From: a virus
DNA: 22,583 nt
Reading direction: 5' to 3' (one strand)
Virus genome (UHGV): UHGV-1292143
Both the position numbers and the translations under genes were made by a program. This document shows positions 6,748 to 22,583 of the stretch, one piece after another. The notes under the pieces were generated by a model. That model worked only from the letters and a program-made list of their open reading frames with translations, searched no databases and was not told the origin of the DNA. Numbering within the stretch: the first letter of the stretch is position 1; each line of letters opens with the position of its first letter.

Positions 6748-6758
6748 CAAAAGAAAAA

Positions 6759-6841: not shown

Positions 6842-6910
6842 CGTTTTCTAAGTGCAAAGAATCACCATTTCGAGCTGGTGATTGAAGGTTGATGCAAATT
6901 TGGAGAAAAA

Positions 6911-7711: not shown

Positions 7712-7740
7712 CAGACGTAGTAAGAACCACCAGCATTGTA

Positions 7741-8871: not shown

Positions 8872-9068
8872 TACGTAGATTAGCCTCTTACCGACCAAAA
8901 GGTCAAGGAGAAGCAGGCTATGAAGCAGCAAAAAGCGATGTTAATCGCTCTGATCGTCATCTGTTTAACCGTCATTGTGACGGCACTGGTAACGAGGAAA
9001 GACCTCTGCGAGGTACGAATCCGAACCGGCCAGACGGAGGTCACTGTCTTCACAGCCTACGAATCTGA
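8862..9068 (+). CDS. mok-like leader ORF overlapping hok in another frame
   Basis: 68-aa ORF starting upstream of hok and overlapping it, as in hok/mok/sok loci. Confidence 0.4.
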   Translation: MLSIRRLASYRPKGQGEAGYEAAKSDVNRSDRHLFNRHCDGTGNEERPLRGTNPNRPDGGHCLHSLRI

Positions 9069-9075
9069 AAGGTAA
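8920..9075 (+). CDS. hok: Hok/Gef-family type I toxin (51 aa)
   Basis: MKQQKAMLIALIVICLTVIVTALVTRKDLCEVRIRTGQTEVTVFTAYESER: N-terminal transmembrane helix plus conserved TRKDLCEV and FTAYE motifs; AAGGAG Shine-Dalgarno 9 nt upstream. Confidence 0.85.
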   Translation: MKQQKAMLIALIVICLTVIVTALVTRKDLCEVRIRTGQTEVTVFTAYESER

Positions 9076-9097
9076 GAGACCTGGCGGGGAGAGATCC

Positions 9098-10435: not shown

Positions 10436-10491
10436 GGAGAGATCCCCGCCACTCTTCGTGTGTCAGGTATCCTCAATGCACCCTTTCCTCT

Positions 10492-10522
10492 CCAAATAAA
10501 AAAGCTCCCGAAGGAGCTTTAA
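10492..10522 (-). terminator. rho-independent terminator ending the minus-strand late operon
   Basis: Minus strand reads AAAGCTCC-TTCG-GGAGCTTT followed by TTTTTATTT, immediately after the stop of the 10540-11049 gene. Confidence 0.6.
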
Positions 10523-10539
10523 AATACAAGGGATGACTC

Positions 10540-11049
10540 TTAATCCCACTCAATCCAGTTGTAGACGATACGAAGTGACGGGCGCACAGCGGCAGTCACA
10601 TCTTCGGTACTAAAGTCGATTGCATCACTGTAGATTTTGCAGTCCAACATTTCAATTGTTGTAGCAGCTTTTGTCACAGCGTTAACCCCGGAAGCTTTGG
10701 ATTCAGGGGTAGCAGCCATCGTGATATCAACATAGTCCTTCGCCGCAATGCGATCCTTAATGAACTGAAGAATATCGCCTTCGATAGTCTCCACGCACTG
10801 GACCTGGATTTCCCCAGAGTTTCGAATTGCTCCGTGCTGGTTGAACTTCACACCATTCGGACCATAGTCCTCCACATCCTCTCGAGTCATTTCAGGGATT
10901 TGCGACGTGCGAACCAGTACGCTGATATCTTCATGGCCTGCAAAAGTGAGCTGGAATTCAGAAGATACCAGTCGTTCGCCTTTGGCCGCGTTGGCAGTAT
11001 AGCGGCCCTTAATAAATTTACGGTTTCCCTTAGTGTTATTGTGCCCCAT
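10540..11049 (-). CDS. phage tail tube-like protein (169 aa)
   Basis: Pattern resembles T4 gp19-family tube proteins (FQLTF... ; C-terminal LRIVYNWIEWD versus gp19 ...LALDYWE); AAGGA Shine-Dalgarno. Assignment from memory. Confidence 0.5.
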   Translation of the reverse strand: MGHNNTKGNRKFIKGRYTANAAKGERLVSSEFQLTFAGHEDISVLVRTSQIPEMTREDVEDYGPNGVKFNQHGAIRNSGEIQVQCVETIEGDILQFIKDRIAAKDYVDITMAATPESKASGVNAVTKAATTIEMLDCKIYSDAIDFSTEDVTAAVRPSLRIVYNWIEWD

Positions 11050-11060
11050 ATAAAATCCTT

Positions 11061-11642
11061 TTACTGGAACGCCCGAACAATATCGGAGCTGTTATATATC
11101 GAAGAACCGGTCAACTGGAGGTTGACGGTGTTTTTCAGGAAATATCCATTACTGTCCCTTGGCGCATCGAGATCAAAACTTAAGTCCTGGATGGCGACAT
11201 CGGTGATGTTGATCCGGCGACCAATGTTTAGCGTCACGCGCTCCGGGATTCGACCACCAACATTGGCCGCTTTTAGTTCCGGGCTAATCATGGCTGTCAA
11301 CGCGGCGATAGCGCCTGAAACTTCAATGAATGGATTGTTCAAAGCAATGAAAGTTACAGGCAGCGTGAACGTCGGCGGAGTCCCCCCTTCCCAAACCATT
11401 AAGCTATTCCAACGGGCAACCGACGTTGTTTCAGTACCTACTTGCACAAAACCACCCAGAGCACCAGAAACAGATCCCATGGACATACCGGTAAACGGCG
11501 CTTCCCAATTCTGGGCCATGTTCATTGCCGCTCCCTGGCTGATATATCCGGTAACCTGGTACTGAGAGTTCGTTAAAGTAACTTTCAGATATGGCGATAC
11601 ACCGTCAGCCTGGCTGTAAACCCCATAAGCTATAGGAGCCAT
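11061..11642 (-). CDS. phage late/virion protein of unknown function (193 aa)
   Basis: ORF in the late operon; start preceded by a GC hairpin rather than a canonical Shine-Dalgarno. Confidence 0.6.
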   Translation of the reverse strand: MAPIAYGVYSQADGVSPYLKVTLTNSQYQVTGYISQGAAMNMAQNWEAPFTGMSMGSVSGALGGFVQVGTETTSVARWNSLMVWEGGTPPTFTLPVTFIALNNPFIEVSGAIAALTAMISPELKAANVGGRIPERVTLNIGRRINITDVAIQDLSFDLDAPRDSNGYFLKNTVNLQLTGSSIYNSSDIVRAFQ

Positions 11643-11652
11643 TCAAGTTAAA

Positions 11653-11670
11653 GGCCGGAGTTCTCCGGCC
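11653..11670 (-). promoter_or_regulatory. GC-rich hairpin between the acidic-protein gene and the 193-aa gene
   Basis: GGCCGGAG / CTCCGGCC stem; on the minus strand it lies between an AGGAGG motif and the ATG at 11642. Confidence 0.4.
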
Positions 11671-11677
11671 TCCTCCT

Positions 11678-12493
11678 TTAGCCAAGGCGCTTACGGCGCA
11701 GTTTCATTGACTTTTTGCGGGCAAGTTTTGCCGCGCCGGTCTGGGCTTTTCGACGCACTTTTTTCAGCGCCGATTTTTGAGCCGCAGTCAGACGTTTTTT
11801 ACGCAGGCGTTTACGGATGAGTTTGATCTCACCGTTACGAACAACCTTCTTAAATGCTTCAGTCAGCATTTCATCAGAAGTGCCAGCAACAACAAACGCC
11901 GCTTCCAGTTCGTCGCGGTCGTCGCTATCTAAACCAGCGATAGAGGCACCAACATCAGCAGCTGCGTCGTCGTCTTCATCGTCAGCCAGTGCTTCGATCA
12001 GGTCATCATCTACACCGCATGCTGCGAGGAAGTTAGCAACATTTGCCCATGCTTCGTTATAGGCATCGTCCTGTTCTTCTGTAACTTCGGAGTCGTCGTC
12101 ATCAGAGATACCAGCGATAGCCTGAACGAAACCATCAAGGGAGTCGAAAGTCAGATCACCGCTATCAGCCCAGGCGAAAACGGCGTCGGCCGCATCACTC
12201 AACGCATTCTGCATAGCACTTCGATTTGCAGCTTCCAGAATCATCTGGTGCGCCTGTTCGACGGTCCATTCTTTACCGTCTTTCCCTTCCAGGATTTGCT
12301 CAGGAGCCGTGGCAGATGGAGCGTTATCGTTAGTCTGTGCCGCCGGTTCCGGATTATTATTAATAACCGGATCTGTTGTCGGTTCGGCGCTTGCTCGGGC
12401 AGACTCCATCAACTGCACAAGATCAGAGTTCAAAGCGAAACGAGACAGTCCATTCCCCAAAAATACCCCGGATTGAAAAAAGTTTTTGCTCAT
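11678..12493 (-). CDS. very acidic protein with a strongly basic C-terminal tail (271 aa); possible scaffold or internal virion protein
   Basis: D/E-rich body (many DDDD runs) and C-terminal KLIRKRLRKKRL...RRKRLG; AAGGA Shine-Dalgarno 7 nt upstream; starts 10 nt after the stop of 12503-14008. Confidence 0.65.
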   Translation of the reverse strand: MSKNFFQSGVFLGNGLSRFALNSDLVQLMESARASAEPTTDPVINNNPEPAAQTNDNAPSATAPEQILEGKDGKEWTVEQAHQMILEAANRSAMQNALSDAADAVFAWADSGDLTFDSLDGFVQAIAGISDDDDSEVTEEQDDAYNEAWANVANFLAACGVDDDLIEALADDEDDDAAADVGASIAGLDSDDRDELEAAFVVAGTSDEMLTEAFKKVVRNGEIKLIRKRLRKKRLTAAQKSALKKVRRKAQTGAAKLARKKSMKLRRKRLG

Positions 12494-12502
12494 TGTATTT
12501 CC

Positions 12503-14008
12503 TTACTTAATAAGCAGCGGTACGCCCTGGATACGACGGGCTACGCCAGTCGGGCAGCAGGCCCAGACTACTTCCCATTTATCGAATTCCGCCTGCGTAA
12601 CTTTCAGCACATACGGTTCTGTACCGTCAGCATCAGGATCACGAGGAGCCACCAGAGCGCCGGAGGCGACAAAGCGATCCAAAAGTTTGGTCATCCCTTT
12701 AGTCAGGCCAGACTCAGTAATGCCGTCCGGGTTATGCTTCATCTGTCGGGCTAACTGGACAAAGAAACGGCTGATTGCGTTCATCAGGGATGGGACGTGC
12801 TGGAAATGCAGATAGTTGTCCTGCGTGCAGCAAGTTAAAGCATCATCGATGATCATCTGGCCCGAAGTACCTACAGATACTTTATTGAGTCGGCCCTTGA
12901 CCATAGCTTCTTCGTCCGGGGTGTCTTCAGGATACAGCGGCTGAAGTGATGCACGAGCAATGACGGCACGTTCTTCACCAGCCGGTGAGTAATGCCAACC
13001 GCCGACATCGGAGTTTTTCTTGACGCCACGAGCTTTCGCCGCATACGCCGCGCCAGACAGACCGAAGACCACGCGGGATTGGGTCCATTTGTCTTTGCAG
13101 GAGAACGGGAAATGATAGACAGCACAGCTTACATAATCGGTACCAAGTAAACCGGTATCTTCAACAGCAGAGATCGCCGCATTGTCATAGCAACCCAGGC
13201 CGAGAACAGCGGTGTGCATGTACGGCGCATTGTTCAGCACTTTCACCGCACGCAGGTAAGCAGCAGTGGAAATGTTCGACTGATCGCCGTTGGTACCGCC
13301 AGTGAACGCCAGCGATTTTTTATTTGTTACTTTCGCCGTCGAAATCAGCTCTTCATTAACAACCGCGCGCAGATATTTAGAACGGGCTTCCAGAGCCGTA
13401 GGCAGATAACACAAGCGGCCCATGTCATCTTTCGCTTCTTCCGCCAAAGACACAGTGTGTGTCTCCAGGGTCGTTACCACACCGAGCGAAGTCGTCTGGG
13501 TCAGTTTTAAGAGGAAGCGTTCATTACCCGCGCTGTCCGCTGTTGCCGTTTCGATGGTTAACTCACGGGTAGGAGAAATACACGGATCACCATCATCAAC
13601 GTAGATAGCAAAGGCTTCGCCGCTATCAAGTTCAATTTCAGAACCGTATGGCAACGCACTGTAAGCCGGTTCGCCTGATTCATCGAACATAATAATCGGG
13701 AACTTCGCATCATCCGGAACAGCACGGACAACATAACCAGACGTTTGCTGAATAGCTTCGTACACATGGCGAATTGGTTCGAACTGTGAGCCGGAGGACG
13801 GCTTCAGCGGTTCGCCGAGAACATCTTCGTAATTGGACTCAGTAACCGCAAGAACAGTAAACGGCTTGCCACGCGCAAATACGCCAATACCAGCCCACAA
13901 GCTGCTATTTAATGCAACACCGGTAGATAACGTCGCATCGGCATTGATCGGGCTAACAGCGACACCGGATGCATTACCTAATGACTGTTGAATTGAATAT
14001 TGAGACAT
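12503..14008 (-). CDS. large late structural protein (501 aa), possibly tail sheath
   Basis: Size and position between the head-precursor gene and tube-like genes; function is inferred from gene order only. Confidence 0.5.
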   Translation of the reverse strand: MSQYSIQQSLGNASGVAVSPINADATLSTGVALNSSLWAGIGVFARGKPFTVLAVTESNYEDVLGEPLKPSSGSQFEPIRHVYEAIQQTSGYVVRAVPDDAKFPIIMFDESGEPAYSALPYGSEIELDSGEAFAIYVDDGDPCISPTRELTIETATADSAGNERFLLKLTQTTSLGVVTTLETHTVSLAEEAKDDMGRLCYLPTALEARSKYLRAVVNEELISTAKVTNKKSLAFTGGTNGDQSNISTAAYLRAVKVLNNAPYMHTAVLGLGCYDNAAISAVEDTGLLGTDYVSCAVYHFPFSCKDKWTQSRVVFGLSGAAYAAKARGVKKNSDVGGWHYSPAGEERAVIARASLQPLYPEDTPDEEAMVKGRLNKVSVGTSGQMIIDDALTCCTQDNYLHFQHVPSLMNAISRFFVQLARQMKHNPDGITESGLTKGMTKLLDRFVASGALVAPRDPDADGTEPYVLKVTQAEFDKWEVVWACCPTGVARRIQGVPLLIK

Positions 14009-14023
14009 AACTTTCCCTGTTAT

Positions 14024-14041
14024 GCGCCCCGCACGGGGCGC
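14024..14041 (-). promoter_or_regulatory. perfect 8-bp GC stem hairpin between the head-precursor and sheath-like genes
   Basis: GCGCCCCG / CGGGGCGC with no downstream U-run; likely an mRNA-stability or attenuation element rather than a full terminator. Confidence 0.4.
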
Positions 14042-14067
14042 TATGTTAAACGGAGAACTTCCCCTGA

Positions 14068-15774
14068 TTACTCAGAGTCACCGGCATCAATCGTGTCGCT
14101 GCTTATAAAGTTAAGCCCGCCTTTTTTGGCCATTGTCAGCGTTACACGAGTGAAGTAATCAGCGCCGTTGCGTGGGTGCATATCGTTGATAGCCGAACCC
14201 CACAGCGTGGTACGGTTGACCAGCACCGGAGTGGTCGGATGCTGGAACGGGATGGCCGGGACAGCATCACCAGTCACGAAGCCTGCTTTACCCGGATTTT
14301 CATCACGGACGTAGCACAGCACATCCATCGAGCTGAACTGAATGTTCTCTGTCGTTAAGTTCTTACAAATACCAGCAGGTACTTCGTACACTTTCACGTT
14401 ACCGAACAGGGTACCGATGTAGTGAACATACGGAGTCTGGATATAGTCTTCGGCTGGCTGGAAGAAATCCTTCGGCAACTGTTTGAAGAAAGATGCTGCA
14501 TCAGCACCAGCAAACATCCCCATCGCACCAGAAGATTTAACGCGCTCAATAATGTCGCGATATACAGTCTGGAATTTGCCACGAATGATGGTTGCCCATA
14601 CATCAAAGGACTGGTTAACCGGCAGAGCGATGTCAAAGGTGTCGGTCGCAAGAGTACGCCAGATCATGATGCGAAGACGCAGCATATCCTGTTCATGAGA
14701 CAGGTATTCCTTCAGGGTGCGGAACTGTAGGGAACCCAGGTCCAGACCAAATTCACGCTGTGCTACATACGCCGCCTGTACCGTGTGCTCAGCCGCGATA
14801 ACGAACTGACTTGGGAACAGGGTGTATTTCTTCATTTCGTGGTTGATCAGCGGGATCAGCTCAGGAGCGGCTTCAATATTGATTTCCGTCTCAATTGCGA
14901 TCTCAGTGCCTTTATCCGGCGCTTTGGAGAACGACAGGGCAATCTGACCAATGTTGTAGTTCAGAGAGCAGGTAACAGTGATTTGCTCACCAGCAGCATT
15001 AGTAAACGAGTGAAGTAGGCTGCCGGAACCGTTATCAACAACAGACTTAATACGGTTAACGTAGATGTTAGTGCGACCTTTTCGGATTGGTACATTCTGG
15101 CCTTCGAAGTCTTCCATCTTGAAGGTTGCGGTTTTGCTGGTGCCATCGGAGCTTGCCACCAGCACATAGCGGCGACGTAACTGGCTGTACACACCGACGG
15201 ATTGCATGTCCAGAACATCACCAGCAGCATAAGAACCAAAAGATGAACCTGCCACGTTAAAGACTTCATAGATGTCGGACTGGTCACGCGTAACCGGAAT
15301 GAAGGTACACGCATCAGCGGTAGCTGCCCCCAACTGAACAGGCAGGATCATCGCGAGGAATAAAGGCAGACGCATAACACCGTCAGAAACGCTCATCATC
15401 TCTGCTGCGACGGATTCCAGCATCGCTTTATTAGTGGCATCCATGCTATTGCGGGTGGACTCAATCAGGCAGTTTTCCAGCGTCTGGTGGCAGGAGGCCA
15501 GAATTTCCGGACGCGGCATAGATTTATGTGCTGCGGCGTAGTCAGCCAGTGCACTTGCCCACGCTGTAGCGATTTGAGCGGTGGCATTATCAGAGATACC
15601 CGCAAAAACCGGGTCTTTACGTGCAGCTTCAAGGATAGATGCGGCACGCGCGGCATCATCTTTAATGAATTGGTTATCAGTACCGAACTGCGCAGTGCTT
15701 GCCCAGCCAAGCACAGCTTTAGAGCGTTTTGCGATATCTGCAATACGATTCTGGTATTCGCGTAAGTTACTCAA
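14068..15774 (-). CDS. major head protein precursor (P1 gp23-like) with helical N-terminal delta-like domain (about 568 aa)
   Basis: N-terminal ~150 aa are helical/Ala-rich, then a large beta-rich body. Probable TTG start at 15772-15774 with AAGGAAGAG Shine-Dalgarno; the track start at 15795 has none. Sits next to parS/parB as I recall for P1 gene 23. Confidence 0.55.
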   Translation of the reverse strand: MSNLREYQNRIADIAKRSKAVLGWASTAQFGTDNQFIKDDAARAASILEAARKDPVFAGISDNATAQIATAWASALADYAAAHKSMPRPEILASCHQTLENCLIESTRNSMDATNKAMLESVAAEMMSVSDGVMRLPLFLAMILPVQLGAATADACTFIPVTRDQSDIYEVFNVAGSSFGSYAAGDVLDMQSVGVYSQLRRRYVLVASSDGTSKTATFKMEDFEGQNVPIRKGRTNIYVNRIKSVVDNGSGSLLHSFTNAAGEQITVTCSLNYNIGQIALSFSKAPDKGTEIAIETEINIEAAPELIPLINHEMKKYTLFPSQFVIAAEHTVQAAYVAQREFGLDLGSLQFRTLKEYLSHEQDMLRLRIMIWRTLATDTFDIALPVNQSFDVWATIIRGKFQTVYRDIIERVKSSGAMGMFAGADAASFFKQLPKDFFQPAEDYIQTPYVHYIGTLFGNVKVYEVPAGICKNLTTENIQFSSMDVLCYVRDENPGKAGFVTGDAVPAIPFQHPTTPVLVNRTTLWGSAINDMHPRNGADYFTRVTLTMAKKGGLNFISSDTIDAGDSE

Positions 15775-15825
15775 TTTACTCTTCCTTAAACACAAGGCAC
15801 TTGTGTGAATCCCTTTTCGGAAGAG

Positions 15826-15854
15826 ATTTTATTGAAAGTCACTTGTTGACTTTC
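15826..15854 (-). promoter_or_regulatory. candidate late promoter: palindrome GAAAGTCA-N5-TGACTTTC with a TAAAAT -10 hexamer 2 bp downstream
   Basis: Seen on the minus strand about 50 nt upstream of the head-gene start. Architecture (palindrome around -22/-25 plus -10, no -35) resembles P1 Lpa-dependent late promoters as I recall them. Confidence 0.35.
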
Positions 15855-15914
15855 TCGCGAAAAGTAATTTTTTAAATTTTTTGTGCGGGGAAGTGGACGG
15901 TGAATGCAGGCGTT

Positions 15915-15990
15915 AAATCGTGGGAATTTCAGTCTGAAATTCTCCTAAAAAACACATGCAAATCATAAGGTTAGTAATGAAATTGGTGCG
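15915..15990. other. parS: candidate parS centromere
   Basis: Immediately downstream of parB: inverted heptamer-like boxes AATTTCAG-T-CTGAAATT (15925-15941), an IHF-like site AATCATAAGGTTA (15961-15973), then AATGAAATTGG; compare P1 parS box A ATTTCAC with an internal IHF site. Confidence 0.45.
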
Positions 15991-16038
15991 GGACATTTTA
16001 GGAAGGGGAGGGGCTAACACCACCTCCCACCAGCGGGA

Positions 16039-17004
16039 TTATTCCCCAGCAGACATTTTCCCAATGATTTTTTTTATTGCTTCGTCAATTTCAGTTTGCA
16101 CTTCAGACGGGAGTCTGGAGAACTCGTAGGCGACAACCCGTTTTTTCGGATCGGACTTCTTTCGAGCATATTGGCGACGGTCAGAGAAGTCTCGCAGCTT
16201 CTCAACCACCACAGATTTAACCGGCGCGGGCTTCAGGCTTTTGCTTTCCGCTTTGAAGATAGCCAGTATCTTCGCTTTATCCTCTTTCGCGCCCTCAGTC
16301 TCTGCAATTCGTTCGCGCACCGTATCAACCAGCTCTTCAATAGGCACGCTTTTAGCGTTGGCATCCTCGGAGATCTGGAGCAGTAACTGGTAATCTGGCA
16401 GGGCGAGATCGCTGGCAACAGGGAAGACAGCAATCATCTCATCCGGCACCGCTGCCGCCTGGAACGCGCGCGTAACTTTAGCCTTTGAAATGTTCTCAGC
16501 GCGGGCGATCTCTTCTTTGGTCATGCTCTTACCATACATAACCTCGAAGCGTTTACCCAGTTCGCGCAGGGTGTGTTCGCGGGCTGTCTGGATATCAATG
16601 GCCAGCTGGCGTGCATCCGCCAGGCTGATCTCATCTTTCGTCACCAGAATCTCAAATTTCGTTTCATTGAAGATACACGCAGCGCGGCGACGTGATCCGT
16701 CCAATACCTCAATGCGCTCCCCAACCATACGACCGATAGCCGGGAAGAACTGTTGCAATTTAATGGTGCGGGAAATATCGCTTACCGACTCAGGGGTGAG
16801 CAGAGACTGATCGCGGCCGTTAACTGCCGGGTCAACGAACGTGCGCGACTCAATCTCACCACTCAGCACAACGGTAAGCAAAAATTTAGCCTGGCGGCCA
16901 GATTTTAGGGTAAAGGTTTTGGTGCCTTCACTGCCTTCAAGCATGCGAGCAAACTCGGAGCTATTCTTGCCCAGCACTCGTCCACGGGAAACTATTTTTT
17001 TCAT
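16039..17004 (-). CDS. parB: ParB partition protein, P1/P7 type (321 aa)
   Basis: Core ...FFPAIGRMVGERIEVLDGSRRRAACIF...KAKVTRAFQAAAVPDEMIAVFP... aligns with P1 ParB by eye at roughly 50% identity; ATGA overlap with the parA stop. Confidence 0.85.
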   Translation of the reverse strand: MKKIVSRGRVLGKNSSEFARMLEGSEGTKTFTLKSGRQAKFLLTVVLSGEIESRTFVDPAVNGRDQSLLTPESVSDISRTIKLQQFFPAIGRMVGERIEVLDGSRRRAACIFNETKFEILVTKDEISLADARQLAIDIQTAREHTLRELGKRFEVMYGKSMTKEEIARAENISKAKVTRAFQAAAVPDEMIAVFPVASDLALPDYQLLLQISEDANAKSVPIEELVDTVRERIAETEGAKEDKAKILAIFKAESKSLKPAPVKSVVVEKLRDFSDRRQYARKKSDPKKRVVAYEFSRLPSEVQTEIDEAIKKIIGKMSAGE

Positions 17005-18212
17005 GCCGCCTCACCCCTAACAAACTCAATTCGATCAAACACAGCCTTAGTGAAACGCTCGGCCTCGGTTCGTGCCTTCTTCAGCGCCTCTGCACTGCCT
17101 GGATACGATTGCGGGTTGGCACTGATTACGGTGTCGAAAGACTCGCCGCATCGCTCAAATCCATCCAGACGAGGCAGAGAAGAGTCCAGAATGTTGCTGG
17201 CGTAAACCTCACGCGCAAGGCTGTGTGATGTCTCGTGATCGCGCTTGCCGGTCATCTTCGACATAAAACCAATGCTGGCGCTTAAACGCGGTTCTACGCC
17301 TTCCTCCTCCAGTTGCTCCAGCATTTCTGGCAGACGGGTGAGATATTTCAGTGTTGAGTGGAAGTCAACCTGGGCTGGTGGGGTAGGGGTAAGCAGCAAA
17401 TCGCTGGCCGCCAGACCGTTGAGCAGGAACGGATCCAGGTGTGGACCGGTATCAATAAAGATAAAGTCATAATCATCCGCAACACGATCAATGATATTGC
17501 GTCGAAGGATTTCGTACTGATTTTGTCCGGGAAGATGCTCTTCAACCAGCTCTTTCCATTGGCTGGCAACAAAGCCATCGTCGATAGAGGCTGGAATCAC
17601 GTCTACGCCAGGAACGATGGTCGGACGAATCACCTCTTTGCGTAGCGTCTCCGCGTCCAAGTCGTTCAGCATCGCCTGCGCGGCGGTTTCCAGGATGGAA
17701 CCAATACTGTGAGTATGGTCGAGGAACATTGTGCTGGATGCCTGAGGGTCAAGGTCAATTACCAGAATGCGCAGATCGTGACGCAGTAAATCCTGATGCA
17801 CACGCAGAGCGTGCGCCAACGTGACTGTGGAAACCGTTTTGGATACGCCACCCTTCAGGTTTACGACAAAAATAACGTAAGGCGATTTGTGAATGTCGCG
17901 ATATTTTGGGATCTTACGGTGGGCATAGATATCAATGACGTTCTGGATGGTCAGCGCGTACTGTTCAACGTTACCGACCTGTTTCTTGTTGAACTGGTAC
18001 CCATCATCTTCCATCTCTTTGATGGCCTGCTCCACAATGCGGCGGCTCAGCTTCGGCAACTTTGCCACAGCGTTACGAGTGAACGTCTGATAATACTCGG
18101 TCTGATTGAACTCTTTGCGCTGATCTTCAATATCCTGACTCATGGCCTTAAGTAATGCGCTTGCACGAAGAGCTATGGTGCCGACACCGCCGTAATCGCG
18201 TTTCATCATCAT
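17001..18212 (-). CDS. parA: ParA partition ATPase, type Ia with N-terminal DNA-binding extension (about 400 aa)
   Basis: Deviant Walker A NLKGGVSKTVST, plus ...RILVIDLDPQ..., ...GFMSK..., LPRLDGFERCGESFDTVISANP; three consecutive ATGs at 18204-18212 behind an AAGGAG Shine-Dalgarno. Confidence 0.9.
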   Translation of the reverse strand: MMMKRDYGGVGTIALRASALLKAMSQDIEDQRKEFNQTEYYQTFTRNAVAKLPKLSRRIVEQAIKEMEDDGYQFNKKQVGNVEQYALTIQNVIDIYAHRKIPKYRDIHKSPYVIFVVNLKGGVSKTVSTVTLAHALRVHQDLLRHDLRILVIDLDPQASSTMFLDHTHSIGSILETAAQAMLNDLDAETLRKEVIRPTIVPGVDVIPASIDDGFVASQWKELVEEHLPGQNQYEILRRNIIDRVADDYDFIFIDTGPHLDPFLLNGLAASDLLLTPTPPAQVDFHSTLKYLTRLPEMLEQLEEEGVEPRLSASIGFMSKMTGKRDHETSHSLAREVYASNILDSSLPRLDGFERCGESFDTVISANPQSYPGSAEALKKARTEAERFTKAVFDRIEFVRGEAA

Positions 18213-18256
18213 CTCCTTATCATTTCGTATGAGTGAATTGTACGTTTGATTCTGCT

Positions 18257-18297
18257 ACGTGCAACTTATTTTGATTCGTGCGTAAATTATTGCACGT
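18257..18297 (-). promoter_or_regulatory. candidate par operator/promoter region (inverted repeat ACGTGCAA ... TTGCACGT)
   Basis: Inverted repeat directly upstream of parA; ParA-type autorepressor operators are imperfect inverted repeats at this position. Confidence 0.4.
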
Positions 18298-18299
18298 AA

Positions 18300-18600
18300 A
18301 GAAATGGCGATGAGGCTATTAGATGTGTGCTGGAGGGATGATGCAGGACCAGAATGTGCGATAGAGGGAAGTCGCATTGAATTATGTGTTGTGGAGGGAT
18401 CGCTGGTATCAAATATGTGCGCTGAAGGGAAAGATAGAAGATTAGATGTGCGCTGGAGGGAAACTTGGATGGTTAGATGTGTGCTGGAGGGAATGTCTGG
18501 GCAAACTGCGTGGCGCAACCCTCCAGCGCACACCAAAAACAGGAAAATGGGCAGGCATTCCCGGCAGCGCACATTTTTCAAATGCAGCTGCCCTCCAGCA
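18300..18600. repeat. incA-like array of ~19-bp RepA iterons (about 9 copies, both orientations)
   Basis: Repeated GATGTGTGCTGGAGGGAAA-like units with the last copies inverted; located downstream of repA. Confidence 0.8.
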
Positions 18601-18605
18601 CACAC

Positions 18606-19466
18606 TTATTCGGGAAGTTTCAGCTTTGGATTGCGAGAATGGACGATTACAAAACTTTCCCGGCCTTTCTTCTCAATTGAACAGTCGAGATAGCCGATTG
18701 TTTTAAGCTGTTCTATCGCTTTCTTAATGATACGGTTTTGCTCGCCAACAGCTGACTGCAAAGCCAGGCGCTCACGGATTCGCGCGAACGATAGCGGCAA
18801 CGGGTTCTGCGGAAGGCTTTCGATGAAAGTGTAAATGGCTTGTGCAGCTTCTTTCTTCGGAAGGGCACGCAAGGCGTGGTGTTGCAACAGAACGCGATAA
18901 TCAAGCTGGAACAGCTCCCAGAGCTTCGAATCGGCCTCCAGCTCTATCAGATCAAGGTCAGCATCAAAACGCCCGACCTTCAGCAGACCAGTCTGATAGC
19001 CGCCTTTAGCATCTTTTCCGCGCTTAAAAGCGATACCCTTGTTACGCAAGCGTCCAAGTGATTCATGAATGGTTAAACGCAGTTTCGCATCCAGACGTTT
19101 TGAGGGGAAACCACAGGCTTTAGCGAACTCCTGAAACGATAACTGGATGGTGTTTGAAGACAAGCCGTATTTGCTGAACGCGTAGATGACACCGATCCAC
19201 GTTTTGAAATCAGTATCCATATCGAGTCGAGGACCGGTGATTTTAATATCATCGTAACCCTCGGCTTTAGCTATCTCCAGCTGGGAAAACGCTTTGGTGG
19301 CATCAATCTCTTTACTTTCTCCTTTGCTCTTTGATGGCTTCGGAACGAATACCCCCAAGCGCATCAACGCTACAGGCTGCACAGTGTTGTTTGAATTAAC
19401 TGTTAGTTCTTTTGCCTTACTTTCAATGTCTGCGTAAAGAATATCGGAGATAAATGATTGATTCAT
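18606..19466 (-). CDS. repA: RepA plasmid-prophage replication initiator (286 aa)
   Basis: Flanked by iteron arrays on both sides; protein matches my recollection of P1 RepA very closely (not verified). Confidence 0.9.
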   Translation of the reverse strand: MNQSFISDILYADIESKAKELTVNSNNTVQPVALMRLGVFVPKPSKSKGESKEIDATKAFSQLEIAKAEGYDDIKITGPRLDMDTDFKTWIGVIYAFSKYGLSSNTIQLSFQEFAKACGFPSKRLDAKLRLTIHESLGRLRNKGIAFKRGKDAKGGYQTGLLKVGRFDADLDLIELEADSKLWELFQLDYRVLLQHHALRALPKKEAAQAIYTFIESLPQNPLPLSFARIRERLALQSAVGEQNRIIKKAIEQLKTIGYLDCSIEKKGRESFVIVHSRNPKLKLPE

Positions 19467-19756
19467 ATTACTTTTTCCGAATTATGTGGATAGTTTTTAT
19501 AAGTGGTGATAACTACCCAGGCTTTCCCGTCAGCACACATCCTATATCCCGCCAGCACACATTAGCAACCCGTCAGCACACATTTTTATCCCTCCAGCAC
19601 ACATCGTTTTCCCTCCAGCACACATCGCGATACACTTCTAAGCCAGACGTGGCGCGGCCTGCAACGATCAGGGATCTATATGGATCTAATTGGGATCTGT
19701 ATGGACCTAATTATTGGATCTACCCAGTGGATAATGTGGATAATGTGGATAAGTGA
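19467..19756. other. oriR-like plasmid origin: five incC iterons, GATC-containing heptamer repeats, tandem DnaA boxes
   Basis: Iterons at 19524-19628 (CCAGCACACAT cores); five GATC motifs at 19667-19725; TGTGGATAA-type DnaA boxes at 19728-19755 and near 19474-19490. Confidence 0.8.
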
Positions 19757-19780
19757 AAAACCGGCCAACATAGCCGGTTG
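19755..19780 (-). terminator. rho-independent terminator after the 19793-20185 gene
   Basis: Minus strand AACCGGC-TATGTTG-GCCGGTT followed by TTTTT. Confidence 0.5.
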
Positions 19781-19792
19781 GAAGGAAGGGTA

Positions 19793-20185
19793 TTATTCTA
19801 CGCTTTCGATAAGAAGACCATGTTCATAACATTTAAGCTCATCGCCTTCGTACAGGAATTGGTATCCAATACCACCATTTTCATGGACATTAGGGAATAA
19901 CTCATAACTCACTGAAGAGCAAATCACACCAATGCAGCGATCAACGCCTTCTCGTTCTTCAGTGCTGAAAAAATCCTCTTCGGTAAGGACATGAGTACAT
20001 TGCTCATCAGCATAGGTCGGAAATACATGCTCGATGCAATCCGGGTGTTTTAAACCAAGCTGATCGGCAAGCTCGAAAGCATGACGGTATTGTTCAGATC
20101 CTGGCTTGCCAACAGTGATGTGCTCAATTTTGTAGATTGAAGTTGCTTTGTTGATAGTTTGCTTTACTGTTACTTTATCAGACAT
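19793..20185 (-). CDS. hypothetical protein (130 aa)
   Basis: ORF ending next to oriR; no recognisable motif. Confidence 0.6.
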   Translation of the reverse strand: MSDKVTVKQTINKATSIYKIEHITVGKPGSEQYRHAFELADQLGLKHPDCIEHVFPTYADEQCTHVLTEEDFFSTEEREGVDRCIGVICSSVSYELFPNVHENGGIGYQFLYEGDELKCYEHGLLIESVE

Positions 20186-20196
20186 AAAAATCCCTT

Positions 20197-20448
20197 TTAG
20201 TTACCTCTGATAGCGCGGTTGTAATCATTAACGTTGCGATTCTTCCTGTTAATCCCCATCAGCATCGTTTCTGTATCGAGGATATACGCTGGCAGATCAT
20301 CAAAATATTCACTGCTAAACTCTGGCATCCTGCACATAAATGCACTTTTGGGGGCAGGGTGGTTAACCTTTGTCGGCGTCGGCGTTAAATTCGCTGATCG
20401 ACTGCCGGAGCAACCGCTGAGTGTCAGCAGGAATGCGCTGGCGAACAT
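20197..20448 (-). CDS. o-spanin (Rz1-like outer-membrane lipoprotein), overlapping the i-spanin gene in another frame
   Basis: Signal peptide with lipobox LTLSG|C (MFASAFLLTLSGC), Pro-rich mature part (TPTPTKVNHPAPK); start taken at ATG 20446-20448; overlaps the 3' 86 bp of the i-spanin gene. Confidence 0.6.
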   Translation of the reverse strand: MFASAFLLTLSGCSGSRSANLTPTPTKVNHPAPKSAFMCRMPEFSSEYFDDLPAYILDTETMLMGINRKNRNVNDYNRAIRGN

Positions 20449-20785
20449 TACCCGCCGCAACCAGTTGTTTCTGAACTTCAGCTTTTCGTTCCATTTGCCT
20501 GTCAGCATATTTGGCTTGTTCTGATTCATTTTTCACTTCCTGGCTGTGAAAATGTTGCTCTGCTTTGTTCATCGTCTCAATGGTCTGGTTAAGATCCATT
20601 ATTGACTTATCACGTTCCTTAACAGCCTGATCAAGACTGCCAATTTTCTCCATGGCTTGCTTTAGCTGATGACGTTCCCATGCAAACCCAGCACCAACAA
20701 GTGCGCAAATCAGAACAAGAACACCAGTAGCAGCAAGTTTCTCCTTCAAAGACAAAGCTGTTTTTAACGTAGAAAAGAATGACAT
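20363..20785 (-). CDS. i-spanin (Rz-like): N-terminal transmembrane anchor plus periplasmic coiled coil (140 aa)
   Basis: MSFFSTLKTALSLKEKLAATGVLVLICALVGAGFAW, then coiled-coil region; ATG at 20783-20785 with a strong AGGAGG Shine-Dalgarno (the track start at 20812 is an upstream TTG). Confidence 0.7.
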   Translation of the reverse strand: MSFFSTLKTALSLKEKLAATGVLVLICALVGAGFAWERHQLKQAMEKIGSLDQAVKERDKSIMDLNQTIETMNKAEQHFHSQEVKNESEQAKYADRQMERKAEVQKQLVAAGNVRQRIPADTQRLLRQSISEFNADADKG

Positions 20786-20824
20786 GTCTTCCTCCTGAAG
20801 AAAAATTATCAATGAAGTCCTTTG

Positions 20825-21613
20825 TTACTGTGCCGCTTTGTTTAATTCATCAAGAACAGAATCAGGAACCAAAGCGGCAACTGCGCTGGCTGTGCTGACC
20901 TTATTTGCTGATGCTTCCGCAAGCGCGGTACCGATAGCATGGTTATAAGCAGTTATGGCTACGTTGGCGCTTTCATTCGCTCGTTCATACTGCTGTTGTA
21001 ACGCAGTTGTGGGCGCTGTTGTCTGGTTGAAAACAACCCCAAACTGTTCAGTTGCTACTTTCAGAGATTCAATTTGCTCTTCTGTTAGTGCTGGTGGGGG
21101 AGTGGCAGTGCCGCCGCCTGAACCAGAGCCTGACGAGCTTCCTGAGCCAGTGTTAAGGGTCTGGTTAATCTCCCCCATAGCAGCGACTAAACTTGATGTA
21201 TTAAGCGCGTTAACAGCGTCCTCAAGCGATTTAGTAATATTCACATCACCAATGGCAATAGAGATCGGCAGTTCTGAAACTTCTCGCTCATTAGCACGGC
21301 AGTAAACATCCCAACCAATATCGAGTTGAAGCAGCATTGACAGATCTGCATAACCAGCCAACAGGTCCGCGTGCTTAGTTGCCAGTTCTCCAATGTTCGT
21401 TAAGCCGGTTGTGGTTGTTCTGATCGTTGAAACATAGCTGGTAATAGTGTCGGGATAGACAATTGTATCCAGAATTAATCCGGTCAATTCTTCTGCAAGC
21501 AGTTTTGCTGTGTTAGCACTGTTTCGTGCCGATGTTATGGCACCAGGTGTTTTCATCCCACCGGCGGCGGCCAATTTTTTATATGCGGATAACTGGTAGT
21601 CTTTTTCCAGCAT
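20825..21613 (-). CDS. hypothetical protein with central Gly/Ser-rich linker (262 aa)
   Basis: ATG at 21611-21613 with AGGAGA Shine-Dalgarno, 9 nt after the PAAR-like gene stop; linker NTGSGSSSGSGSGGGTATPPP between two predicted helical domains. Confidence 0.65.
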   Translation of the reverse strand: MLEKDYQLSAYKKLAAAGGMKTPGAITSARNSANTAKLLAEELTGLILDTIVYPDTITSYVSTIRTTTTGLTNIGELATKHADLLAGYADLSMLLQLDIGWDVYCRANEREVSELPISIAIGDVNITKSLEDAVNALNTSSLVAAMGEINQTLNTGSGSSSGSGSGGGTATPPPALTEEQIESLKVATEQFGVVFNQTTAPTTALQQQYERANESANVAITAYNHAIGTALAEASANKVSTASAVAALVPDSVLDELNKAAQ

Positions 21614-21621
21614 GATATCTC

Positions 21622-21906
21622 CTAACTTACCTGAACCAGGCCGTCTCCGGACGCTACGGTAGATCCGCATGAAACAGGGTCACCAACGCATACGATCCCT
21701 TTACCATTGACGGTAAACCATGCCCTGGTTGATATAGCTTGCCCACCGTGCGTACTGTTTCCATCGGTATGCTGTGCATATTGCTTACCATCAACTAACA
21801 CTTCGACTCCGTTGACTTTAAGTAGTGGTTCACTCTCTACAGGAGGCCTGGATGGGAATCCTCCGTGCCCCGAACAAATGCTGTCTTTTGTTGCAATACT
21901 TGCCAC
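21622..21906 (-). CDS. PAAR-like spike-tip protein (94 aa)
   Basis: Three repeats of the PAAR-type motif (ATKDSICSGHGG; AQHTDGNSTHGG; VCVGDPVSCGSTVASGDG); GTG start. Confidence 0.55.
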   Translation of the reverse strand: MASIATKDSICSGHGGFPSRPPVESEPLLKVNGVEVLVDGKQYAQHTDGNSTHGGQAISTRAWFTVNGKGIVCVGDPVSCGSTVASGDGLVQVS

Positions 21907-21986
21907 GTCATCACCAATTATTTGCTCTGGTTTTCGTTATTTTAACTTAGGTTACTTGTGGTCTAAATGGCGTCAACTATTGCATA

Positions 21987-22003
21987 ATTGCTCTAATAAA
22001 TAT
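21987..22003 (+). promoter_or_regulatory. third C1-repressor-type operator/promoter; its downstream gene is interrupted
   Basis: ATTGCTCTAATAAATAT with TATGTC 17 bp after the TTGCTC; same architecture as the operators at 5164 and 6825. Confidence 0.5.
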
Positions 22004-22074
22004 TGTTTTTTATGTCTTGTTTTCGGTACCATTCAGCCATCGCCCTTCAATGGGTATTTGTTTGGAGTCGTCAG

Positions 22075-22147
22075 ATGCAGATGGAGCTAATAAGCCGCAA
22101 AGAGTTCGATAGCCGTGTAACCAGCGGTGAACTCGACAACTTGCAGG
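22075..22147 (+). pseudogene. 5' fragment (about 24 codons) of an operator-controlled gene truncated by IS911-like insertion
   Basis: ATG at 22075 with GGAG upstream; reading frame MQMELISRKEFDSRVTSGELDNLQ runs into the IS end at 22148. Confidence 0.35.
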
Positions 22148-22478
22148 TGAAGTGGTTTACTGAATTTGGCCTCCTGAACAGAGGTGATATGCTCACCTCA
22201 GAACAACACAGGTGCTCCAATGAAAAAAAGAAATTTTAGCGCAGAGTTTAAACGCGAATCCGCTCAACTGGTTGTTGACCAGAAATACACGGTGGCAGAT
22301 GCCGCCAAAGCTATGGATGTTGGCCTTTCCACAATGACAAGATGGGTCAAACAACTGCGTGATGAGCGTCAGGGCAAAACACCAAAAGCCTCTCCGATAA
22401 CACCAGAACAAATCGAAATACGTAAGCTGAGGAAAAAGCTACAACGCATTGAAATGGAGAATGAAATATTAAAAAAGG
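22148..22478 (+). mobile_element. IS911-like (IS3 family) element, left 331 bp only; truncated by IS1
   Basis: Begins TGAAGTGG...; encodes an OrfA almost identical to IS911 OrfA as I recall it; sequence switches to the IS1 terminus at 22479. Confidence 0.75.
22220..22478 (+). CDS. IS3-family (IS911-like) OrfA helix-turn-helix protein, 3'-truncated
   Basis: [86 protein letters not shown], then interrupted. Confidence 0.75.
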
Positions 22479-22583
22479 GGTGATGCTGCCAACTTACTGA
22501 TTTAGTGTATGATGGTGTTTTTGAGGTGCTCCAGTGGCTTCTGTTTCTATCAGCTGTCCCTCCTGTTCAGCTACTGACGGGGT
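22479..22583 (+). mobile_element. IS1 (canonical sequence), left end only; element continues beyond the window
   Basis: GGTGATGCTGCCAACTTACTGATTTAGTGTATGATGGTG... matches the IS1 left terminus exactly as I recall it; insA GTG start at 22534. Confidence 0.9.

What the first reader, a model, noticed from the sequence alone, without database searches (positions are those of the whole stretch)
20197..20785. Overlapped i-/o-spanin pair located next to the plasmid origin, with no holin or endolysin nearby
An Rz-like gene and an Rz1-like lipoprotein gene overlapping it in another frame are unambiguous, but they sit beside oriR in an operon with a PAAR-like protein rather than in a lysis cassette. 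Spanin expression here would be uncoupled from the other lysis genes.
Basis: partly seen in the sequence, partly recalled or inferred. Interest (0 to 1): 0.35.

Follow-up and report, generated by a model that had tools for sequence, protein, structure and literature searches.

The report
Phage P1 spanin genes ppfA/mlp
This is the already catalogued two-gene "spanin" pair (ppfA/mlp) of phage P1, in its normal place beside the plasmid origin. Here it survives intact in a decayed P1-derived IncY plasmid that has lost its holins, most of its endolysin and its late-gene activator, so it is an ordinary, known feature.

Summary
Window 20363-20785 (-) encodes a 140-aa type II inner-membrane protein. 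Window 20197-20529 (-) encodes a 110-aa lipoprotein precursor (lipobox LSGC, Ser at +2) in the +1 frame, with a 167-nt overlap.

These genes are ppfA and mlp of phage P1 (95-99% nt identity to P1, P7 and relatives). Kongari 2018 lists them as an "overlapped" two-component spanin, and Bednarek 2022 describes them as lying in an operon unlinked to lyz/lydD and lydA/lydB. They are remote homologues of P2 LysB/LysC.

The order upfC-upfB-ppfA-mlp-upfA-oriR-repA is native: 76 of 82 related loci show it complete, and the other 6 lack only an end gene.

"Uncoupled expression" is not supported for intact P1. Published P1vir RNA-seq puts the whole operon in the late class, with lyz, lydA/B/D and the structural genes. 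I also find P1 late-promoter boxes directly upstream of upfC and ppfA; the ppfA box is kept in the divergent phage JK004.

In this replicon the point is moot. The window matches IS-riddled IncY plasmids (p1505h_scFOS: 100% and 99.97% over its two parts) that lack lydA-D and lpa and keep only 30% of lyz. The pair is most likely a silent relic retained by linkage to oriR.

Novelty: already known. Spanin function is still untested experimentally.

The parts
21939..21967 (-). Promoter region upstream of upfC. It holds a sigma-70-like TTTAGA-17-TAAAAT. Overlapping it is a P1 late-promoter-like box, ACAAGTAACC-TAAGT-TAAAAT, at 21939-21959.
   Evidence: Promoter scan. The late-promoter consensus has 4 hits with at most 2 mismatches in the window, against 0.08 expected. 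The same site is one of only 9 hits in a whole P1 genome. Variants occur across the IMG/VR loci. Its function is inferred.
21622..21906 (-). upfC: PAAR-type tail-spike tip protein (94 aa, GTG start).
   Evidence: Pfam PAAR_motif E 8.5e-6; PHROG 281 E 2e-30; NCBIfam PAAR E 4.5e-9, below cut-off. The P1 cryo-EM study places UpfC as a monomeric spike tip like T4 gp5.4 (PMC12810830).
20825..21670 (-). upfB: the tail-tip 'tripod' protein of the P1 virion.
   Evidence: 97.7% identical to P1 UpfB; PHROG 1559 E 9e-138; structural role from PMC12810830.
20805..20825 (-). Late-promoter-like box ACAAAGGACT-TCATT-GATAAT. Its -10 hexamer ends 19 nt before the ppfA start codon, in the upfB-ppfA gap.
   Evidence: It is invariant in the 79 related loci in which the site was located. 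Divergent JK004 has ACAAATGACC-TGGCG-GAAAAT at the same place, one of only 2 hits in that 12.4-kb locus against 0.03 expected. It is not annotated as a late promoter in NC_005856. Its function is inferred.
20363..20785 (-). ppfA: i-spanin (140 aa). The N-terminal TMD is residues 17-35 (nt 20681-20737) and the periplasmic domain is helical.
   Evidence: PHROG 89 'Rz-like spanin' E 1.1e-25, the family that P2 LysB hits at 5.8e-61. Listed as P1 OIS gp064 in Kongari 2018.
20197..20529 (-). mlp: o-spanin precursor (110 aa from ATG 20529). The lipobox LSGC is at nt 20410-20421. The mature lipoprotein is 71 aa.
   Evidence: PHROG 30284 E 1.4e-76 and PHROG 456 (the LysC family) E 4.2e-5. BLASTP to P2 LysC gives 37% identity, E 4e-8. 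Listed as P1 OOS gp063 in Kongari 2018. The start codon is uncertain; alternatives are TTG 20460 and ATG 20448.
20363..20529 (-). The 167-nt doubly coding overlap (mlp in the +1 frame of ppfA).
   Evidence: In the signal-peptide and lipobox part, the DNA is 86% identical to JK004.
19793..20185 (-). upfA: last gene of the operon, function unknown.
   Evidence: PHROG 1453 E 2.4e-61; P1 annotation.
19759..19779 (-). Terminator-like hairpin followed by a T run, 14 nt after the upfA stop and abutting the DnaA boxes of oriR.
   Evidence: The exact string occurs in only 12 of 80 related loci. Its function is inferred.
19523..19772 (-). oriR, the plasmid origin (iterons, GATC sites, DnaA boxes). The position is mapped from the P1 annotation and is approximate to within about 8 nt.
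   Evidence: rep_origin feature of NC_005856; 95.5% nt identity over window 18319-22147.
18606..19466 (-). repA, the plasmid replication initiator.
   Evidence: 100% aa identity to the RepA of P1 isolate OP279344.

Best explanation
The feature is the ppfA/mlp gene pair of a P1-type element, the P1 version of an overlapped two-component spanin distantly related to P2 LysB/LysC.

How it works in an intact P1 (inferred from the sequence features and from the lambda Rz/Rz1 paradigm):
- PpfA inserts into the inner membrane N-in/C-out and projects a helical rod into the periplasm.
- Mlp is exported, lipidated at Cys40 and sent to the outer membrane, because residue +2 is Ser.
- The two join through the peptidoglycan mesh.
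- Once the holins (LydA, LydC, LydD) trigger and the SAR endolysin Lyz removes the wall, the complexes fuse or disrupt the outer membrane. This is the last step of lysis.

The pair is not in a lysis cassette. It lies in a late operon with the tail-tip proteins UpfC and UpfB. Coupling to the other lysis genes is temporal, probably through Lpa-dependent late promoters. It is not positional.

In the replicon this window most closely matches, a P1-derived IncY plasmid eroded by IS elements, the holins, Lpa and 70% of lyz are gone. The pair is therefore most likely an unexpressed or harmless relic. It has survived because it lies within about 300 bp of oriR/repA, which the plasmid must keep.
For: Identity:
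- 95-99% nt identity to P1, P7, SJ46 and RCS47 across 19700-22000.
- PpfA is 97-99% identical to the P1 proteins.
- The P1 annotation shows the same order, upfA-mlp-ppfA-upfB-upfC next to oriR.

Already known:
- Kongari 2018 Table S1 lists P1 and P7 as 'ovl' with OIS gp064 and OOS gp063.
- Bednarek 2022 says the pair partially overlaps and lies in 'yet another unlinked operon'.

Spanin features:
- TMD, charged helical periplasmic domain, lipobox, Ser at +2, +1-frame overlap.

Homology:
- PpfA and P2 LysB both hit PHROG 89 over their full length (1.1e-25 and 5.8e-61).
- Mlp hits the LysC family PHROG 456, and LysC hits the Mlp family PHROG 30284.
- BLASTP of Mlp against LysC gives E 4e-8.
- The best NCBIfam hit of PpfA is TIGR03495 phage_LysB.

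Conserved arrangement:
- 82 loci keep this gene order, 76 of them complete, and none has Lyz or LydA-C within about 6 kb.

Late expression:
- RNA-seq Table S1 of PMC8201110.
- The late-promoter motif, checked against the annotated LP23, LPlyz and LPsit, gives 9 hits in a whole P1 against 0.4 expected. Six are at late operons (three of the sites checked against the annotated LP features, the rest taken from my own knowledge of P1) and two are upstream of upfC and ppfA.
- The ppfA site is conserved in JK004.

Relic status here:
- The window is 100% and 99.97% identical to NZ_OQ534123.1 across that record's origin.
- That plasmid and pLR-25_1 lack lydA, lydB, lydC, lydD, lpa, pacA and most tail and head genes. 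lyz is cut to residues 1-55.
- In PLSDB, 606 plasmids hold at least 80% of the pair, against 485 for lyz and 471 for lydBA.
Against: - No experiment has shown spanin activity for PpfA/Mlp (Bednarek 2022).
- CRISPRi knock-down of mlp or ppfA did not reduce P1 plating, whereas lambda Rz scored as essential in the same study.
- The curated models do not include the pair. The Pfam Rz and Rz1 models do not hit, and TIGR03495 scores 19.5 bits against a cut-off of 92.75.
- Profile comparison of the shallow PpfA alignment with single LysB or Rz sequences is not significant.
- The 39-residue signal peptide is unusually long. Its first 27 residues are only 33% conserved against JK004.
- The ppfA-proximal box of P1-type elements has G where the six late promoters I inspected have T.
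- The late promoters are inferred, not mapped.
- I cannot prove that the window comes from one of the eroded plasmids rather than from a sibling with a fuller P1 genome.
Confidence: 0.85

Rival explanations
1. PpfA/Mlp are not lysis spanins. They are envelope proteins that serve the tail-tip module they are transcribed with (UpfC spike tip, UpfB tripod), or some other periplasmic role such as exclusion. The resemblance to spanins would then be only topological.
For: - The pair shares an operon with two virion tail-tip proteins.
- Spanin function has never been tested.
- Knock-down of either gene has no plating defect.
- No curated Pfam or NCBIfam spanin model reaches its threshold.
Against: - Reciprocal PHROG-level homology to P2 LysB/LysC, plus BLASTP of Mlp against LysC at E 4e-8.
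- The gene architecture is exactly the overlapped spanin class.
- Spanins are dispensable under ordinary laboratory conditions, so the negative CRISPRi result is expected.
- In P2, lysB/lysC also lie inside a late operon between tail genes.
- The cryo-EM study did not list PpfA or Mlp among the proteins it identified.
Confidence: 0.07
2. One reading: because the pair lies in the plasmid-maintenance region, it is expressed independently of the lytic programme, for example constitutively in the lysogen from sigma-70 promoters.
For: - The NC_005856 annotation predicts only sigma-70 promoters (P1ppfA, P2ppfA) and no late promoter here.
- A sigma-70-like site lies upstream of upfC.
- The neighbouring repA and par genes are plasmid genes.
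Against: - At 10 min after infection the operon is as low as the late genes (log2FC 4.1-5.6, against 7.4-9.5 for repA, parA and uhr). It then rises about 70-fold by 30 min.
- Late-promoter boxes lie at both upfC and ppfA.
- The operon partners are virion proteins.
- No data from lysogens were available to me, so low basal expression is not excluded.
Confidence: 0.05
3. In the eroded IncY plasmids the intact pair is kept by selection for a new, non-lytic function, such as envelope remodelling, vesicle release, or help for a co-resident prophage's lysis. Linkage to oriR would not be the reason.
For: - Both ORFs are intact in plasmids that have lost about half of the P1 genes tested.
- At least 121 PLSDB plasmids appear to hold the pair without a full lyz.
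Against: - The neighbours upfA, upfB, upfC and the structural genes 21, 22 and 23 are equally intact in the same plasmids, although they are useless without the rest of the virion.
- The spanin DNA is 100% identical to copies in other plasmids, so the erosion is recent and says nothing about selection.
- Lpa is absent, so late promoters should be silent.
Confidence: 0.03

Closest known systems
Phage P1 / P7 ppfA (gp064) and mlp (gp063)
   Same: It is the same gene pair. PpfA is 97-99% identical at the protein level (Mlp 100% in the closest plasmid). The lengths are the same (140 and 110 aa), as are the lipobox and the flanking genes upfC, upfB, upfA, oriR and repA.
   Different: - There are only allelic substitutions.
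- The upfC-upstream box differs (ACAAGTAACC here, ACAAATAATC in NC_005856).
- The host replicon is probably a degraded IncY plasmid without lydA-D or lpa and with a truncated lyz.
Phage P2 LysB / LysC (prototype overlapped two-component spanin)
   Same: - Overlapped architecture, with the lipoprotein gene in the +1 frame running past the end of the i-spanin gene.
- Similar sizes (141 and 96 aa).
- Shared PHROG families, and 37% identity between Mlp and LysC.
- Both pairs lie in a late operon next to tail genes.
   Different: - P2 lysB/lysC directly follow holin Y, endolysin K and lysA. The P1 pair is about 32 kb from lydA and about 43 kb from lyz.
- The similarity is too weak for the curated TIGR03495 model.
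- Mlp has 23-27 extra N-terminal codons.
Phage lambda Rz / Rz1
   Same: The same predicted topology and the same presumed mechanism: a type II inner-membrane protein with a helical periplasmic domain, plus a small outer-membrane lipoprotein encoded in the +1 frame.
   Different: - Rz1 is fully embedded in Rz and lies in the S-R-Rz cassette.
- There is no detectable sequence relationship (PHROG 13 and 3198 against 89 and 30284; hhalign probability below 2%).
- Lambda uses periplasmic Cys in both subunits. PpfA has none and mature Mlp has one (Kongari Table S1).
Phage T4 pseT.3 / pseT.2
   Same: A precedent for spanin genes that are not next to the holin or endolysin genes of the same phage. This rests on my own knowledge of the T4 map. 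The 'separated' spanin class is described.
   Different: The T4 genes do not overlap and belong to unrelated sequence families. I did not test them here.

Membership tests
Two-component spanin (criteria of Summer 2007 / Kongari 2018) | i-spanin: a single N-terminal transmembrane domain, type II topology | tested here: met
   One hydrophobic segment at residues 17-35, KD19 maximum 2.35, with basic residues before it (K8, K14, K16). The topology itself is inferred.
Two-component spanin (criteria of Summer 2007 / Kongari 2018) | i-spanin: periplasmic domain mainly alpha-helical, in two helices joined by a linker | tested here: met
   AlphaFold2 predicts helix 13-110, a break at 111-119 and helix 120-137, at mean pLDDT 70. 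35% of the residues are charged. I did not run a coiled-coil predictor.
Two-component spanin (criteria of Summer 2007 / Kongari 2018) | o-spanin: signal peptidase II signal with lipobox [LVI][ASTVI][GAS]C | tested here: met
   LSGC with Cys at residue 40. It is unchanged in the 81 P1-type loci, and JK004 has LSAC. The signal is unusually long if translation starts at ATG 20529.
Two-component spanin (criteria of Summer 2007 / Kongari 2018) | o-spanin: outer-membrane sorting (no Asp at +2) and a short mature domain | tested here: met
   Residue +2 is Ser. The mature part is 71 aa with 6 Pro. The sorting rule is established knowledge of the Lol pathway.
Two-component spanin (criteria of Summer 2007 / Kongari 2018) | o-spanin gene embedded in, overlapping or directly following the i-spanin gene | tested here: met
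   +1 frame, 167-nt overlap, extending 166 nt beyond the ppfA stop. This is the 'overlapped' class.
Two-component spanin (criteria of Summer 2007 / Kongari 2018) | Function: disrupts the outer membrane at lysis and complements lambda Rz/Rz1 | not testable with these tools
   Reported as not verified experimentally for P1. CRISPRi knock-downs have no plating defect.
Two-component spanin (criteria of Summer 2007 / Kongari 2018) | Periplasmic Cys for intermolecular disulfides (general in Kongari 2018, shown for lambda) | tested here: inconclusive
   PpfA has no periplasmic Cys. Mature Mlp has one besides the lipidated Cys (the same counts appear in Kongari Table S1).
Expression with the lysis programme (late genes of P1) | Transcript kinetics of the late class | tested here: met
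   Published P1vir RNA-seq shows a 10-to-30 min rise of 5.7-6.9 log2 for upfC-upfA, against 5.3-8.9 for the other lysis genes and 0.7-5.3 for early or plasmid genes. These data are for P1vir, not for this element.
Expression with the lysis programme (late genes of P1) | Lpa-type late promoter (-22 box plus -10) upstream | tested here: inconclusive
   Two-mismatch matches lie upstream of upfC and ppfA, and the motif is highly specific genome-wide. These sites are not annotated as late promoters and are not mapped experimentally. lpa is absent from the closest replicons.
P2 LysB / LysC family | Sequence membership by curated model (NCBIfam TIGR03495 phage_LysB) | tested here: not met
   19.5 bits against a cut-off of 92.75. 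So this is a remote relative (PHROG 89, 456 and 30284), not a member of the equivalog.
Lambda Rz / Rz1 families (Pfam) | Match to the Pfam Rz or Rz1 models | tested here: not met
   Neither protein hits a spanin model in Pfam-A at E up to 0.1. hhalign against lambda Rz gives a probability of 1.7%.
Punavirus (P1-like) ppfA/mlp locus | Near-identity and synteny with P1: upfC-upfB-ppfA-mlp-upfA-oriR-repA | tested here: met

The most novel reading that the evidence does not exclude
The intact spanin pair in lyz-less, holin-less, lpa-less IncY plasmids is not a passive relic. It is maintained and expressed from its sigma-70-type promoters for a non-lytic envelope function, or as a 'helper' that completes lysis for co-resident prophages. 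At least about 120 such plasmids appear to exist in PLSDB.

A more modest new point is likelier to be true, at roughly 0.6. P1 spanin genes have their own unannotated Lpa-type late promoter in the upfB-ppfA gap. That would explain how scattered lysis genes are synchronised.
Probability: 0.04. Interest if true: 0.5.

Novelty: already known. Interest (0 to 1): 0.12.

Why it matters
It matters little beyond correct annotation.
- The pair should be labelled ppfA (i-spanin) and mlp (o-spanin). Many records call them hypothetical or omit mlp.
- Scattered lysis genes can still be co-regulated. P1 appears to do this with late promoters rather than with a cassette.
- Genes that lie next to a replication origin outlive the rest of a decaying prophage. 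An "orphan" spanin next to an IncY origin is therefore a marker of P1 ancestry. It is not evidence of lytic capacity.
- The one open question is experimental: nobody has shown that PpfA/Mlp act as spanins.

Tried and rejected
- Searches for distant relatives returned only P1-type sequences (at least 59% identity). These were the word-indexed protein search, the viral-contig scan with an alignment and tblastn against phages. I therefore could not test whether distant homologues lie in lysis cassettes.
- Profile-to-sequence comparison of the shallow PpfA alignment with P2 LysB and lambda Rz was not significant. The PHROG profiles were what revealed the LysB/LysC link.
- Pfam gave only spurious coiled-coil hits.
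- Rfam found nothing in 18000-22583.
- Lobocka 2004 and Summer 2007 are not in the paper library. What they say is taken from the GenBank annotation, from later papers and from my own recollection.
- I considered whether ATG 20448 or TTG 20460 is the true mlp start. P2 LysC aligns from residue 24, and the first 27 codons are poorly conserved. However, JK004 has no ATG at codon 28, and in both lineages only ATG 20529 keeps an SD. This stays unresolved.
- I did not use the 1.84-billion-protein HMM search, because it gives no genomic context.
Full report
**What is there.** On the minus strand, window 20363-20785 is a 140-aa ORF with a strong Shine-Dalgarno sequence (AGGAGGaagacATG). Window 20197-20529 is a 110-aa ORF in the +1 frame that overlaps it by 167 nt and runs 166 nt past its stop.

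- The first protein has one hydrophobic segment, residues 17-35. Its 104-residue C-terminal part is 35% charged.
- AlphaFold2, run on an 11-sequence alignment, predicts one long helix (13-110), a short break and a second helix (120-137), at mean pLDDT 70.
- The second protein carries the lipobox LSGC, with Cys at position 40 and Ser at +2.
- Its mature part is 71 residues, with six prolines and one further cysteine.

**It is real, not a chance ORF.** Cronobacter phage JK004 has a PpfA only 60% identical. It nevertheless keeps a 110-codon overlapping ORF with LSAC, an AGGAGG and an ATG within one codon of the same place.

- Against JK004, the part of the overlap that encodes the signal-peptide core and lipobox is 86% identical at the DNA level. 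The rest of the locus is 62-70% identical, as expected when two frames are constrained.
- In the other 81 related loci, Mlp reads 110 aa with an unchanged lipobox in 80, the exception being a cut alignment. PpfA is intact in 80.

**What it is.** The window is a P1-type element. Bases 19700-22000 are 95-99% identical to P1, P7, SJ46, RCS47 and others, and most of the window aligns to P1.

- In the reference annotation the two genes are ppfA ('possible periplasmic function') and mlp ('membrane lipoprotein precursor ... possibly involved in regulation of lysis, by homology'). RefSeq now labels mlp 'Rz-like spanin'.
- They are flanked by upfA and oriR/repA on one side and by upfB and upfC on the other.
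- Kongari et al. 2018 list P1 and P7 in their spanin table as 'ovl' (overlapped), with gp064 as i-spanin and gp063 as o-spanin. Their table carries the remark 'too long signal sequence'.
- Bednarek et al. 2022 state that the P1 spanin genes partially overlap. They place the genes 'in yet another unlinked operon', say they were identified from predicted features (citing Summer 2007), and say they have not been verified experimentally.
- That paper's text attaches 'o-spanin' to ppfA and 'i-spanin' to mlp. The sequence shows the reverse.
- I found no later paper that tests them.

**Family relationship.** No Pfam spanin model hits either protein.

- PHROGs place PpfA in family 89 (E 1.1e-25, full length). 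P2 LysB hits the same family at 5.8e-61.
- Mlp hits the LysC family 456 (4.2e-5), and LysC hits the Mlp family 30284 (5.4e-4).
- BLASTP of Mlp against LysC gives 37% identity over 68 residues, E 4e-8.
- The best NCBIfam hit of PpfA is TIGR03495 phage_LysB, but far below its cut-off.
- The pair is therefore a remote relative of P2 LysB/LysC, the prototype overlapped spanin. It is not a detectable relative of lambda Rz/Rz1.

**The surroundings are native.** In 76 of 82 loci (80 IMG/VR contigs, P1, JK004) the order is UpfC-UpfB-PpfA-Mlp-UpfA-RepA on one strand. The other 6 lack only an end gene. None has Lyz or LydA-C within about 6 kb.

- In a complete P1 (OP279344, 88.4 kb) lyz lies at 15.8-16.3 kb, lydC/A/B at 25.9-27.0 kb and ppfA at 58.8-59.2 kb.
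- The window itself has no homologue of these lysis proteins, and its non-P1 inserts encode no lysis family.
- A recent cryo-EM study assigns UpfC as the monomeric spike tip, like T4 gp5.4. It assigns UpfB as a 'tripod' at the tail tip.
- The 'PAAR-like protein' of the finding is therefore a virion protein, and the operon is a morphogenetic one.

**Is expression uncoupled from lysis?** In intact P1 it is not.

Table S1 of the P1vir RNA-seq study (PMC8201110) gives log2 fold changes at 10 and 30 min:

| Genes | 10 min | 30 min |
|---|---|---|
| upfC | 4.86 | 10.63 |
| upfB | 4.12 | 11.07 |
| ppfA | 5.57 | 11.25 |
| mlp | 4.15 | 10.53 |
| upfA | 5.21 | 11.24 |
| lyz | 6.05 | 11.35 |
| lydD | 4.23 | 9.97 |
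| lydA | 5.21 | 11.77 |
| lydB | 3.37 | 11.01 |
| gene 23 | 5.44 | 12.07 |
| repA | 7.37 | 10.16 |
| parA | 9.46 | 11.46 |
| uhr | 8.62 | 11.06 |

- The physical neighbours repA, parA and uhr are already high at 10 min.
- Grouped, the spanin operon rises by 6.2 log2 units on average. The other lysis genes rise by 6.8, the structural late genes by 7.1 and the early or plasmid genes by 3.0.

I then asked how this could be achieved.

- From late-operon upstream regions of P1 I derived ACAARTGACT-N5-TANAAT. Three of these sites I checked against the annotated -22 and -10 elements of LP23, LPlyz and LPsit.
- With at most two mismatches it occurs 4 times in the window, against 0.08 expected. The sites are LPsit/pmgC, LP23, 20805-20825 just upstream of ppfA, and 21939-21959 upstream of upfC.
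- In a whole P1 genome it occurs 9 times, against 0.4 expected. Six hits are at the late operons mat, prt, S/R, sit/pmgC, 23 and 26. I take these as known late promoters from my own knowledge of P1; only the three named above were checked against annotation. Two more are the upfC and ppfA sites, and one lies inside gene 7.
- In JK004 only two hits occur in 12.4 kb: LP23, and ACAAATGACC-TGGCG-GAAAAT directly upstream of ppfA, in sequence that is otherwise diverged.
- These two sites are not annotated as late promoters in NC_005856, which predicts only sigma-70 promoters there.
- That they are Lpa-dependent promoters is my inference. The P1-type ppfA box has a G where the six late promoters I inspected have T.
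- A terminator-like hairpin follows upfA and abuts the oriR DnaA boxes.

**The replicon this window comes from.** The window starts and ends in IS1. An IS3-family orfA fragment sits in uhr.

- The window is 100% identical (1-19466) and 99.97% identical (19467-22583) to IncY plasmid NZ_OQ534123.1 (p1505h_scFOS, 102 kb), across that record's origin. It is nearly identical to pLR-25_1 and about ten other plasmids of 77-102 kb.
- I ran tblastn with 84 P1 proteins against the two plasmids I fetched in full.
  - Intact: repA, parAB, genes 21-23, bplB, pmgG, tub, pmgC, kilA, c1, cre, phd/doc, upfA-C, ppfA and mlp.
  - Absent: lydA, lydB, lydC, lydD, lpa, pacA, prt, pro, the tail-fibre and baseplate genes, and genes 5, 6, 7, 24, 25 and 26.
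  - Reduced: lyz to its first 55 residues, and sit to 4%.
- These plasmids carry resistance genes, metabolic islands and many IS copies.
- P1-derived IncY plasmids of this kind have been described before.
- In this setting the pair has no holin, no working endolysin and no late activator.
- Spanins are held inactive by intact peptidoglycan in the lambda model (established knowledge). Their retention should therefore cost nothing.
- Their position within about 300 bp of the indispensable origin explains their survival.
- In PLSDB, at least 80% of the pair is found in 606 plasmids, lyz in 485, lydB-lydA in 471 and lpa in 567. So at least about 120 plasmids hold the spanins without a full endolysin gene.
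- These are counts of records, not a matched per-plasmid table.

**Verdict.** The feature is already known.

- The open points are the lack of any functional test, the true mlp start codon, and the status of the two late-promoter-like boxes.
- On the start codon: the first 27 codons are only 33% conserved against JK004, and P2 LysC aligns from residue 24.
- I score interest as low.

Noticed in passing
window 20805-20825 and 21939-21959 (-): There are two matches to the P1 late-promoter motif (-22 box plus -10), directly upstream of ppfA and upfC. NC_005856 does not annotate them as late promoters. The ppfA one is conserved in divergent phage JK004 (L002 5962-5982).
   Followed up: yes
window 1-257, 22136-22478 and 22479-22583: The window is bounded by IS1 sequence at both ends. 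An IS3-family orfA fragment (ORF 22220-22483) interrupts uhr after about 25 codons, and is itself cut by the terminal IS1.
   Followed up: partly
window 7741-8585 (+): repL, the lytic replication initiator, is split into two overlapping ORFs of 166 and 117 aa. This looks like a frameshift or a mosaic junction, so lytic replication is probably defective.
   Followed up: partly
window 257-902: pmgB is truncated to 172 aa at the IS1 junction. In the matching plasmids only 4% of sit remains next to it.
   Followed up: partly
window 20449-20529 (-): The first 27 codons of mlp are poorly conserved in the Mlp frame (33% against JK004) and more variable among P1-type alleles than the mature part. P2 LysC aligns only from Mlp residue 24. 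The true start could be ATG 20529, TTG 20460 or ATG 20448.
   Followed up: partly
window 16039-18212 (parB, parA): The par genes are only about 65% identical at the DNA level to those of the P1 reference NC_005856, but 99-100% identical at the protein level to those of P1 isolate OP279344. This is a different partition (incompatibility) allele.
   Followed up: no
window 9269-10219 (-) and neighbourhood 8600-10500: The rlfA/rlfB region of P1 is replaced. The segment holds an IS4-family transposase ORF. In the matching plasmids a hokD-type toxin gene is annotated at about window 8920-9075.
   Followed up: no
window 2163-5166: The sim (superimmunity) region of P1 is replaced by three ORFs: a 419-aa protein annotated DUF559, a 179-aa protein annotated DUF5384 and a 190-aa protein annotated as a membrane protein. 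A 3-mismatch late-promoter-like motif lies at 3752-3772 (-).
   Followed up: no
literature, PMC9025707 introduction: The text calls ppfA the o-spanin and mlp the i-spanin. The sequences show the opposite: PpfA has the TMD and Mlp has the lipobox.
   Followed up: yes
PLSDB plasmids: At least 80% of the query was found in 606 plasmids for the spanin pair, 485 for lyz, 471 for lydB-lydA and 567 for lpa. Orphaned P1 spanin pairs therefore appear common among P1-derived plasmids.
   Followed up: partly
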